From NCBI RefSeq assembly GCF_003334355.1, contig NZ_QOWP01000084.1: a stretch of 1,577 nucleotides of DNA, one strand, 5' to 3'. Under the pieces are notes generated by a model that did no database searches, was not told the origin of the DNA, and saw only the letters and a program-made list of their open reading frames with translations. Numbering within the stretch: the first letter of the stretch is position 1; every line of letters begins with the position of its first letter. Shown one piece after another: positions 1 through 1,577 of this stretch. The position numbers were made by a program, and so were the translations under genes. This DNA is from Escherichia coli. GTDB lineage: Bacteria > Pseudomonadota > Gammaproteobacteria > Enterobacterales > Enterobacteriaceae.

Positions 1-1192
<1,192 letters not shown>

Positions 1193-1210
1193 ATTTTATA
1201 ACCCAGAACG

Positions 1211-1237
1211 GGCGTCAGAAATGACGCCTTTTTTATT
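1211..1237 (+). terminator. Rho-independent (intrinsic) terminator downstream of J
   Basis: Seen directly: perfect 7-bp inverted repeat GGCGTCA (1211-1217) / TGACGCC (1222-1228) around a GAAA loop (1218-1221, a GNRA-type tetraloop), followed by the T-tract TTTTTTATT (1229-1237). It begins 18 nt after the J stop codon. It is oriented for + strand transcription; the reverse complement has no U-tract after the stem. Confidence 0.65.
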
Positions 1238-1247
1238 GCAGAAAAGC

Positions 1248-1253
1248 GAGAGG
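1248..1253 (+). promoter_or_regulatory. Shine-Dalgarno ribosome-binding site for lom
   Basis: GAGAGG at 1248-1253, followed by a 5-nt spacer (TAATT) and the ATG at 1259-1261. Confidence 0.6.
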
Positions 1254-1258
1254 TAATT

Positions 1259-1330
1259 ATGCGTAAACTTTATGCCGCCATTTTGTCCGCAGCCATTTGT
1301 CTGGCCGTATCCGGTGCGCCTGCATGGGCG
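1259..1330 (+). other. Predicted Sec signal peptide of Lom (24 aa), likely cleaved after the AWA motif
   Basis: The N-terminus MRK (positive n-region), then the hydrophobic core LYAAILSAAICLAVSGA, then the A-x-A-type site P-A-W-A followed by SEHQ. Cleavage after residue 24 is predicted from the pattern only. Confidence 0.65.
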
Positions 1331-1577
1331 TCTGAACATCAGTCCACGCTGAGCGCGGGGTATCTTCATGCCCGGACGAACGTTCCCGGCAGTGATGATC
1401 TGAACGGGATTAACGTGAAATACCGTTATGAGTTTACGGACACACTGGGGATGGTGACGTCGTTCAGCTATGCAGGAGACAAGAATCGCCAGCTGACCCG
1501 TTACAGCGATACCCGCTGGCATGAAGATTCCGTGCGTAACCGCTGGTTCAGCGTGATGGCGGGGCCGTCTGTGCGCG
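1259..1577 (+). CDS. lom: Lom outer-membrane protein (Ail/Lom/OmpX/PagC family 8-stranded beta-barrel), N-terminal 106 codons; 3'-partial, continues past the window end
   Basis: ATG at 1259 with an upstream RBS; open frame to the window end. The translation MRKLYAAILSAAICLAVSGAPAWASEHQSTLSAGYLHARTN...GINVKYRYEFTDTLG..VTSFSYAGDKNRQLTRYSDTRWHEDSVRNRWFSVMAGPSVR matches my recollection of lambda Lom almost residue for residue. It has a typical Sec signal peptide and alternating aromatic/hydrophilic stretches (e.g. GINVKYRYEF) characteristic of beta-barrel strands. Location directly downstream of J fits lambda gene order. Confidence 0.92.
   Translation, partial: MRKLYAAILSAAICLAVSGAPAWASEHQSTLSAGYLHARTNVPGSDDLNGINVKYRYEFTDTLGMVTSFSYAGDKNRQLTRYSDTRWHEDSVRNRWFSVMAGPSVR

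What the first reader, a model, noticed from the sequence alone, without database searches (positions are those of the whole stretch)
1193..1258. Strong intrinsic terminator sits between J and lom, consistent with lom being a separately regulated moron
The 66-bp spacer contains a textbook terminator (7-bp GC-rich stem, GAAA tetraloop, 9-nt T-rich tract) only 18 nt after the J stop and about 20 nt before the lom RBS. Late-operon transcription would be expected to read through it only in the Q-antiterminated mode. By established knowledge lom is expressed from the prophage in lysogens and is regarded as a lysogenic-conversion gene bracketed by its own signals. The arrangement raises the question of where lom transcription starts in a lysogen, because no convincing sigma-70 promoter is visible between the terminator and the lom start.
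Basis: partly seen in the sequence, partly recalled or inferred. Interest (0 to 1): 0.35.

Follow-up and report, generated by a model that had tools for sequence, protein, structure and literature searches.

The report
Conserved terminator hairpin after tail gene J
The hairpin plus T-run between the phage tail-tip gene J and the outer-membrane gene lom is a real, evolutionarily maintained intrinsic terminator, but it belongs to the end of J (phages without lom have it too) and is an ordinary, already annotated feature of lambda-like late operons.

Summary
Window 1210-1237 is an 8-pair hairpin (7 Watson-Crick pairs plus a G·U), a GAAA loop and TTTTTTATT. It starts 18 nt after the J stop and ends 21 nt before the lom ATG. 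It folds far better than shuffles (-14.6 kcal/mol, z -5.1).

Across 26 distinct relatives, 97.6% of stem cells pair, three stem pairs show compensatory double changes, and the six Ts are invariant. Lambda and a second Lom family carry different hairpins at the same place.

- The window is not lambda; it is a lambdoid prophage 98.9% identical to phage 2H10.
- lom-less phages (21, ev017, ev245, HannyBb) keep the same terminator between J and the side-tail-fibre gene. The phage 21 record already annotates it as "terminator".
- The lom presence/absence breakpoint lies exactly at the end of the T-run (1237/1238). The lom cassette is a 21-nt leader, the ORF and its own stronger 3' terminator, with no room for a promoter.
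- No promoter above chance was found in 1.2-1.7 kb upstream.
- Lambda's D-E, E-FI and I-J gaps hold similar hairpins, so a terminator here does not mark lom as a separate unit.

No transcript data were available. Verdict: ordinary and already known.

The parts
2..1192 (+). 3' 1191 nt of the tail-tip / host-specificity gene J (frame 2; ends ...[10 protein letters not shown], stop TGA 1190-1192)
   Evidence: ORF list and translation. Annotated as J / tail fibre protein in matching phage and E. coli records.
1193..1209 (+). Variable 17-nt linker between the J stop and the hairpin. AGAA at 1205-1208 can pair with the U-run and extend the stem.
   Evidence: Alignment A1 shows this stretch varies while the stem and T-run do not. 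The extended pairing appears in the MFE structure.
1210..1229 (+). Terminator hairpin: 5' arm GGGCGTCA (1210-1217), GAAA loop (1218-1221), 3' arm TGACGCCT (1222-1229)
   Evidence: 97.6% of stem cells pair and there are 3 compensatory pairs across 26 distinct sequences. RNAalifold predicts the same helix unprompted. Arm alleles always match across about 120 distinct contexts.
1229..1237 (+). T-tract TTTTTTATT (the U-run of the terminator). Its 3' end is also the left breakpoint of the lom presence/absence polymorphism.
   Evidence: Six Ts are invariant in all 26 distinct spacers. lom+ and lom- loci share sequence up to ...TTTTTTATT and diverge immediately after it.
1238..1258 (+). 21-nt lom leader GCAGAAAAGCGAGAGGTAATT with Shine-Dalgarno GAGAGG (1248-1253). 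This is the first part of the lom cassette.
   Evidence: Invariant in all but one of the type-A lom+ loci, although lom 5' codons vary. Too short to hold a promoter. No promoter-like match above chance.
1259..1577 (+). 5' 319 nt of lom (Ail/Lom/OmpX-family outer-membrane beta-barrel, 199-aa type, with signal peptide)
   Evidence: Translation. RefSeq names the match an Ail/Lom family protein. NCBIfam matches to Rck and OmpX models fall below the equivalog cut-offs. About 47% identical to lambda Lom.

Best explanation
Window 1210-1237 is the J-distal intrinsic (Rho-independent) terminator of a lambda-like late operon.

Mechanism. On the + strand RNA, the G+C-rich hairpin forms in the RNA exit channel just as the weak rU:dA hybrid of the UUUUUUAUU run is in the active site. 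An unmodified RNA polymerase then releases the transcript at about 1232-1237. Polymerase carrying the phage late antiterminator Q reads through, so J, lom and the side-tail-fibre genes are co-transcribed late in infection. In a lysogen, any stray transcription coming out of J is stopped or strongly attenuated before lom and stf.

Ownership. The element belongs to the J module, not to lom. lom is a roughly 673-nt cassette (21-nt leader with RBS, ORF, 3' UTR and its own stronger terminator). It lies immediately 3' of the T-run and has no promoter of its own.

What is shown and what is inferred.
- Shown: the structure, its conservation with compensatory changes, its presence without lom, the cassette boundaries, and the absence of a recognisable promoter.
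- Inferred from established knowledge of intrinsic termination and lambda Q antitermination: that it actually terminates, and that Q bypasses it.
For: 1. Anatomy and energetics.

2. Selection on pairing.
- Alignment A1 holds 26 distinct J-stop-to-T-run spacers drawn from about 200 loci.
- 97.6% of stem cells pair, against 37-59% when the partner columns are slid.
- Compensatory changes are G-C<->A-U (10 sequences), C-G<->U-A (7) and A-U<->U-A (2), reached by 0 of 500 shuffles. RNAalifold finds the same helix.
- 5' and 3' arm alleles are always matched (CGTC/ACG, CGCC/GCG, CACC/GTG), while the flanks re-assort freely.
- G·U pairs (G1210·U1229; the TGCC/GCG variant) are valid only in + strand RNA.

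3. Different hairpins at the same place. The type B family has GGCACCT-CAGG-AGGTGCC and lambda has CGTCCG-GGAA-CGGGCG. Each is followed by a T-run, then about 20 nt, then the GAGAGG/AAGAGG Shine-Dalgarno and the lom ATG.

4. Independence from lom.
- Phages 21, ev017, ev245, HannyBb and several viral contigs have the same hairpin followed directly by TGTGGAGTGAATATG-stf.
- Two spacer alleles occur in both lom+ and lom- loci.
- The phage 21 GenBank record annotates 19195..19222 as 'terminator'.

5. lom's own 3' terminator, AGCCCGCC-GGTTCA-GGCGGGCT followed by TTTTT, scores d +34. It and the J-distal site are the two top-ranked + strand terminator-like sites in 9.6 kb of phage 2H10.

6. Literature.
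- The late genes are expressed from pR' as one 27-kb Q-dependent mRNA (bioRxiv 10.1101/2023.05.14.540688).
- Lom is made at a low constitutive level in lysogens and rises dramatically late (PMC12366544, citing Liu 2013). Lom is strongly expressed in the lytic cycle (PMC9836094).
Against: - No transcript 3'-end or read-through measurement exists for this site in anything I could reach. Termination efficiency and Q bypass are inferred.
- The Q type of this prophage is unknown because it lies outside the window.
- Lambda's homologous-position hairpin is weak (d +9.0; spacer z -0.5), so strength is not uniformly conserved.
- If lom really is expressed in lysogens, some polymerase must pass or start beyond this site, and I found no promoter that explains this.
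- More distant J-bearing phages (SPN3UB, Erwinia 49, PY54) have no gap or terminator after J. The element is therefore a trait of the E. coli lambda/21 group and not of all such tail operons.
Confidence: 0.75

Rival explanations
1. One reading: the terminator is the 5' insulator of a self-contained lom moron, and its presence marks lom as a separately regulated unit bracketed by its own signals.
For: - lom is an indel gene flanked by two terminator-like hairpins.
- Morons are described as having their own promoter and terminator (PMC3594210).
- lom is reported as expressed from the prophage (PMC7067206, PMC12366544).
Against: - The upstream hairpin is present, with identical alleles, in lom-less phages in front of stf.
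- The indel boundary lies 3' of the T-run.
- Only 21 nt separate the T-run from the ATG, and no promoter scores above chance.
- Similar hairpins lie between the essential late genes D-E, E-FI and I-J in lambda.
- lom's G+C content matches its flanks.
Confidence: 0.08
2. The hairpin works mainly as an mRNA 3'-end stabiliser or processing barrier. In the Q-antiterminated late transcript it does not terminate. It protects the upstream J segment from 3'-5' exonucleases after cleavage and so sets J versus lom/stf dosage. Termination of unmodified polymerase would then be incidental.
For: - Hairpins of this kind lie in four of the five other gaps of 40 nt or more in lambda's late operon (D-E, E-FI, I-J, lom-stf), where termination would be counter-productive in lytic growth.
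- Conserved pairing is equally expected for a stability element.
Against: - The invariant run of six Ts immediately after the stem is a requirement for termination, not for an exonuclease barrier.
- This reading is not exclusive with the main explanation.
Confidence: 0.12
3. It is a DNA-level palindrome (a protein-binding, recombination or transposon target site), or a chance inverted repeat, with no role in RNA.
For: - IS4 has inserted at the same position inside the hairpin in at least two different contexts.
- The T-run coincides with the lom indel breakpoint.
- Two loci carry an inverted loop, GAAA to TTTC.
Against: - Sequence is not conserved where pairing is: three arm alleles and two further unrelated hairpins occupy the same place. 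This is the opposite of a protein-binding site.
- G·U pairs work only in + strand RNA.
- On the - strand the hairpin is not followed by a T-run.
- 0 of 200 shuffles fold as well.
Confidence: 0.03

Closest known systems
Annotated terminator between J (central tail fibre) and the side-tail-fibre gene of Escherichia phage 21 (OL657228.1, 19195..19222)
   Same: Homologous element at the same position after the same J 3' end. Its sequence is GGGCGCCAGAAATGGCGCCTTTTTTATT, which differs from the window by one compensatory pair (T-A to C-G).
   Different: Phage 21 has no lom, so the terminator is followed directly by stf. The annotation is computational, and no measurement is cited in the record.
Lambda J-lom intergenic hairpin (NC_001416 18920-18935), and the t'J terminators beyond J described by Luk & Szybalski (1983). 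The latter is from my memory only; I could not find it in the paper library.
   Same: Same position: after the J stop, with a T-run about 20 nt before the lom GAGAGG RBS. Same orientation. It is followed by the same lom 3' terminator and stf start.
   Different: The hairpin sequence is unrelated and much weaker: 6 pairs including a G·U, d +9.0 against +27.6, spacer z -0.5 against -3.0. I could not verify whether it equals any mapped t'J site.
Other terminator-like hairpins inside the lambda/21 late operon (D-E, E-FI, I-J gaps; the I-J one is annotated 'terminator' in phage 21)
   Same: G+C-rich hairpin plus T-run in a gap of 40 nt or more on the sense strand of the Q-dependent late transcript. 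Scores are d +10 to +22.
   Different: They lie between essential virion genes. The J-distal one is the last before the dispensable lom-stf-tfa block and doubles as the lom insertion point.
Canonical moron as defined for HK97/HK022 (for example HK97 gene 15: promoter + gene + terminator, atypical G+C), as summarised in PMC3594210
   Same: lom is present or absent among syntenic phages, carries its own 3' intrinsic terminator, and encodes a host-benefit or exclusion-type outer-membrane protein (PMC3594210; PMC12366544).
   Different: No promoter space or promoter-like sequence in the cassette, and no G+C contrast with the flanks. The upstream terminator is not part of the cassette.

Membership tests
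Intrinsic (Rho-independent) transcription terminator | G+C-rich stem of about 5-14 bp with a 3-8 nt loop | tested here: met
   7 Watson-Crick pairs (5 G-C) plus a G·U, with a GAAA loop. Hairpin energy is -11.4 kcal/mol, or -14.6 with the extension.
Intrinsic (Rho-independent) transcription terminator | U-rich tract starting 0-2 nt after the stem | tested here: met
   TTTTTTATT at 1229-1237, T-score 4.76. Six Ts are invariant in 26 distinct relatives.
Intrinsic (Rho-independent) transcription terminator | Sense orientation, just downstream of a stop codon | tested here: met
   18 nt after the J TGA on the J strand. The reverse strand has no T-run after the hairpin.
Intrinsic (Rho-independent) transcription terminator | Pairing maintained in evolution (covariation) | tested here: met
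   3 of 8 pairs show both-side changes and 97.6% of cells pair, against 37-59% in slid controls. Unrelated hairpins occupy the same site in lambda and the type B family.
Intrinsic (Rho-independent) transcription terminator | Measured release of transcripts at the U-tract in vitro or in vivo | not testable with these tools
   No Term-seq, 3'-RACE or reporter data were reachable. Literature searches found none for this site.
Q-bypassed internal terminator of a lambdoid late operon | Lies inside the pR'-driven late transcription unit, on the same strand, between late genes | tested here: met
   Synteny is I-J-(lom)-stf-tfa in 2H10, lambda and phage 21. The late genes are expressed as one 27-kb mRNA (bioRxiv 10.1101/2023.05.14.540688).
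Q-bypassed internal terminator of a lambdoid late operon | Read through by Q-modified RNA polymerase but not by unmodified polymerase | not testable with these tools
   Inferred from established lambda biology and from the reported strong late rise of Lom (PMC12366544, PMC9836094).
Moron (Juhala et al. 2000 sense; PMC3594210), applied to lom and its flanking signals | Extra gene present in some and absent from otherwise syntenic relatives | tested here: met
   lom+ and lom- loci share the same J end, the same terminator and the same stf start.
Moron (Juhala et al. 2000 sense; PMC3594210), applied to lom and its flanking signals | Own promoter upstream of the gene, inside the inserted segment | tested here: not met
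   The inserted segment starts 21 nt before the ATG. The consensus scan finds no + strand site. The PWM best hit anywhere upstream is 9.4, below the median best of shuffles at 10.2, and the same holds for lambda and type B. Non-sigma-70 or activator-dependent promoters are not excluded.
Moron (Juhala et al. 2000 sense; PMC3594210), applied to lom and its flanking signals | Own terminator downstream | tested here: met
   AGCCCGCC-GGTTCA-GGCGGGCT followed by TTTTT, d +34, is present in most lom+ loci and absent from lom- loci.
Moron (Juhala et al. 2000 sense; PMC3594210), applied to lom and its flanking signals | Nucleotide composition different from the neighbours | tested here: not met
   In 2H10, lom G+C is 0.56 against J 0.56 and stf 0.53. 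In lambda, the values are 0.54 against 0.56 and 0.58.
Moron (Juhala et al. 2000 sense; PMC3594210), applied to lom and its flanking signals | Expressed from the repressed prophage | not testable with these tools
Any curated RNA family (Rfam 15) | Match to a covariance model | tested here: not met
   No match at E <= 1 on either strand of the window.

The most novel reading that the evidence does not exclude
lom has no promoter of its own in any of these phages. Its low 'lysogenic' expression would then come from one of two sources:
1. Leak-through of the J-distal terminator by weak transcription arising in or upstream of J. In that case terminator strength (strong in this family, weak in lambda) would set how much Lom a lysogen makes.
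2. The minority of spontaneously induced cells, in which case lom is simply a late gene.

Either way, the textbook picture of lom as a self-contained promoter-gene-terminator moron would be wrong. The T-run of the J terminator would be a preferred docking point for promoterless cassettes and for IS4.
Probability: 0.25. Interest if true: 0.45.

Novelty: already known. Interest (0 to 1): 0.2.

Why it matters
This is a routine piece of late-operon punctuation. It stops unmodified polymerase at the end of the essential tail genes, and the phage antiterminator overrides it.

The useful refinement is negative. The terminator cannot be used as evidence that lom is an independent unit, because it is there with or without lom.

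The comparative data also sharpen a small, still-open question: where does lom transcription start in a lysogen? The lom cassette is promoterless by sequence, so any start site must lie in J, must overlap the terminator, or must not exist.

That matters modestly for reading lysogenic-conversion and exclusion functions such as Lom, which was recently shown to block lambda-vir when expressed (PMC12366544). It also matters for anyone using the J-lom gap as an insertion site in engineered lambda vectors.

Tried and rejected
- Rfam scan of the window at E <= 1 found nothing.
- Searches for the 1983 Luk & Szybalski paper on terminators beyond J returned nothing. The link to t'J sites therefore rests on my memory and is marked as such.
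- Three papers are not held in the library: Liu et al. 2013 (ribosome profiling), Casjens & Hendrix 2015 and Chen et al. 2005. Their content is used only as quoted by other papers.
The real tR' region shows it was wrong, so that row is discarded and no comparison to tR' is claimed.
- Promoter hunting found nothing usable.
  - The tool's consensus scan and my PWM scan found nothing above chance on the + strand upstream of lom in the window, lambda or type B.
  - By eye, TATAAC (1197-1202) would start transcription at the hairpin itself. TTTATT-N17-AATTAT (1232-1260) would start downstream of the ATG. Both were rejected.
- L165 looked like lom in a non-J context. It is an IS insertion between the type-B terminator and lom.
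- The idea that a J-distal terminator is universal was rejected: SPN3UB, Erwinia phage 49 and PY54 have J abutting the next gene.
- G+C contrast as a sign of a moron was not found.
- The - strand ORF 1196-1522 (108 aa) is antisense to lom and was treated as spurious.

Full report
**What is in the window**

The window holds three things:
- the last 1191 nt of a lambdoid tail-tip gene J, with its stop at 1190-1192;
- a 66-nt spacer (1193-1258);
- the first 319 nt of an Ail/Lom-family outer-membrane gene, with its ATG at 1259.

It is not lambda. The best phage match is Escherichia phage 2H10 at 98.9%. The best chromosome match is 99.8%, and 4,875 of 5,426 complete E. coli genomes hold a related stretch. 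Its Lom is the 199-aa type, about 47% identical to lambda Lom.

**Checking the observation**

The spacer contains GGGCGTCA-GAAA-TGACGCCT (1210-1229), followed by and overlapping TTTTTTATT (1229-1237). Three tests agree that this is a terminator-like element:
- The consensus scan reports it as one of only two + strand terminator-like sites in the window, and the better of the two (8 pairs against 5).
- RNAfold gives -14.6 kcal/mol for 1205-1240, z = -5.1, with 0 of 200 shuffles as stable.
- A d'Aubenton-Carafa-style score is +27.6.

On the reverse strand the hairpin is not followed by a T-run, so the element is unidirectional. Rfam has no family for it. The one adjustment is that the RBS (GAGAGG, 1248-1253) lies only 10 nt beyond the T-tract.

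**Is it more than chance? Comparative evidence**

I collected J 3' ends from viral contigs with a pattern anchored in the J coding sequence, not in the hairpin. I also collected lom loci found with lambda Lom. About 200 loci gave 26 distinct stop-to-T-run spacers (alignment A1).

With the 8-pair helix imposed:
- 97.6% of stem cells form standard pairs, against 37-59% when the 3' partners are slid by 1-3 columns.
- Three pairs change on both sides while staying paired: G-C<->A-U in 10 sequences, C-G<->U-A in 7, and A-U<->U-A in 2.
- 0 of 500 shuffles reach the observed covariation score or paired fraction.

RNAalifold predicts the same helix by itself. In about 120 distinct sequence contexts, the 5' and 3' arm alleles are always matched (CGTC/ACG, CGCC/GCG, CACC/GTG, plus one wobble, TGCC/GCG). 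Meanwhile the J-end alleles and lom 5' alleles on either side occur in every combination. The six Ts after the stem never vary.

Other families carry unrelated hairpins at the same place:
- The 207-aa Lom family has GGCACCT-CAGG-AGGTGCC or GGCACC-CGAAGT-GGTGCC.
- Lambda has CGTCCG-GGAA-CGGGCG.

Each is followed by a T-run and, about 20 nt later, by a GAGAGG/AAGAGG Shine-Dalgarno and the lom ATG.

Conservation of pairing, of the U-run and of position, but not of sequence or loop, is what selection for an intrinsic terminator predicts. It is not what a protein-binding palindrome predicts. Two loci even have the loop inverted (GAAA to TTTC) with the stem intact.

**Whose terminator is it?**

Several phages lack lom altogether: phage 21, ev017, ev245, HannyBb and several viral contigs. 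In them, the same J end and the same hairpin run straight into TGTGGAGTGAATATG, the start of the side-tail-fibre gene. Two spacer alleles occur in both lom+ and lom- loci.

lom+ and lom- sequences are collinear up to ...TTTTTTATT (window 1237) and diverge at the next base.

On the far side of lom sits a second, stronger hairpin: AGCCCGCC-GGTTCA-GGCGGGCT followed by TTTTT, with d +34. Homology to the lom-less junction then resumes with GTGGGGTGAATATGGCAGTA.

So the lom cassette is about 673 nt in 2H10. It consists of a 21-nt leader, the ORF, a 3' UTR and its own terminator. The hairpin in the finding is not part of it.

The GenBank record of phage 21 (OL657228.1) already annotates the homologous 28 nt as 'terminator'. 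It differs from the window by one compensatory pair. The same record annotates another terminator between I and J.

**Control: is a terminator at this place special?**

I scored every intergenic gap from nu1 to tfa in lambda. Of the seven gaps of 40 nt or more, five hold a hairpin plus T-run with a positive score.

| Gap | Score (d) |
|---|---|
| D-E | +22 |
| E-FI | +10 |
| I-J | +19 |
| J-lom | +9 |
| lom-stf | +40 |
| L-K | negative (-34) |
| orf401-orf314 (the frameshifted stf pseudo-gap) | negative (-60) |

Terminator-like punctuation between essential late genes is therefore normal in this operon. It must be overridden in lytic growth, when the late genes are expressed from pR' as one Q-dependent 27-kb mRNA (bioRxiv 10.1101/2023.05.14.540688). 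A terminator in front of lom thus says nothing specific about lom being separately regulated.

The element is also not universal. In SPN3UB, Erwinia phage 49 and PY54, J abuts the next gene.

**The promoter question**

I can go further:
- The cassette has only 21 nt before the ATG.
- The consensus scan finds no + strand promoter-like site in the window.
- A position-weight scan of the 1.2-1.7 kb upstream of lom gives best scores below the median best score of shuffled sequence. This holds for the window, lambda and a type-B locus.
- lom's G+C content does not differ from its neighbours.

By the usual moron criteria (PMC3594210), lom meets 'present/absent' and 'own terminator'. It fails 'own promoter' and 'odd composition' on sequence evidence.

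The literature I could read is consistent with a gene that is mainly late and only weakly expressed in lysogens:
[quoted passage not shown] **Mechanism**

The most likely mechanism is conditional intrinsic termination. Unmodified polymerase is released at the U-run. Q-modified polymerase reads through into lom and stf. In the prophage, the site insulates lom, stf and the b-region from stray transcription of the tail genes.

- Shown here: the structure, the selection on pairing, and which module owns the terminator.
- Inferred from established lambda biology: termination itself and Q bypass.

A non-exclusive rival is that such hairpins mainly stabilise the upstream mRNA segment after processing. 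The invariant T-run argues that termination itself is selected. A DNA-level role is unlikely for three reasons: sequence varies where pairing does not, the G·U pairs work only in + strand RNA, and the T-run follows the hairpin on only one strand.

**Strength**

The supporting features are a 7-8 pair stem, seven Us in the first eight positions, and an upstream AGAA that can pair with the U-run. Lambda's own J-lom hairpin is clearly weaker (d +9.0; spacer z -0.5). Statements about lambda lom therefore cannot simply be transferred to this prophage, or the reverse.

**Verdict**

The element is an ordinary, already annotated J-distal terminator of lambda/21-like late operons.

The only mildly new points are these:
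- It is independent of lom.
- The lom cassette is promoterless by sequence.
- The T-run and hairpin form a recurrent junction for lom and for IS4.

Noticed in passing
L006 2570-4010; L045 (- strand) about 6450-7890; L195 1443-1470. Equivalent to window about 1214-1227.: IS4 (about 1.4 kb, ends TAATGCC...GGCATTA) is inserted inside the terminator hairpin at the same position, with a roughly 13-14 bp target duplication (CACCAGAAATGGTG). It occurs in both a lom-less phage (4B5) and lom+ contigs. The hairpin therefore looks like a preferred IS4 target, and the right-hand copy keeps a shortened hairpin plus the T-run.
   Followed up: partly
L029 and L205 (equivalent to window 1218-1221): The tetraloop is reverse-complemented (GAAA to TTTC) while both arms are unchanged. 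This is a small inversion across the hairpin tip, and it shows that the GNRA loop identity is not required.
   Followed up: no
L165 188-1500: An IS3-like element (two overlapping - strand ORFs, 251-1464) sits between the type-B J terminator (188-207) and lom. This is a second kind of IS landing in the same short gap.
   Followed up: partly
L214 (lambda 1-24000): 6101-6114, 7164-7179, 15466-15479, 18920-18935, 19613-19632: Five of the seven intergenic gaps of 40 nt or more from nu1 to tfa in lambda contain a hairpin plus T-run with a positive terminator score: D-E, E-FI, I-J, J-lom and lom-stf. L-K and the orf401-orf314 pseudo-gap do not. All other gene junctions overlap or are shorter than 16 nt.
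   Followed up: partly
window 1238-1258 and relatives: The 21-nt lom leader plus the T-run (about 30 nt) is essentially invariant. The three hairpin alleles, several J-end alleles and at least three lom 5' alleles occur in all combinations. The spacer therefore behaves as a conserved recombination joint between modules.
   Followed up: partly
L001 1610-1665 versus window 1205-1258: Lambda and the window share GAACGGGCG, but it forms the 5' arm in the window and the 3' arm in lambda. Removing 16 nt (TCAGAAATGACGCCTT) from the window sequence gives something close to lambda's TTTTATT...GAGAGG. This is as if lambda lost the loop and 3' arm and rebuilt a weaker hairpin with new upstream sequence.
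   Followed up: no
window 171-144 (- strand); the same site in L001 583-556 and L002 4171-4144: The best promoter-like match in the window (TTCACA-N16-AATAAT, 10 of 12) is antisense inside J. It is conserved in lambda and 2H10, possibly only because the J coding sequence is conserved there.
   Followed up: no
L175-L182, L025, L062: the first 60 nt after the lom stop: A subset of lom genes is not followed by the usual 3' terminator and stf. Instead the downstream sequence is a different segment, TGACGGCAGATAC...TTCTGTAAATATTGGTATAATG, which contains an extended -10-like TGGTATAAT pointing downstream.
   Followed up: no
window 1196-1522 (- strand): A 108-aa ORF runs antisense to the lom 5' end and the spacer. 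It is treated as a chance ORF and was not examined further.
   Followed up: no
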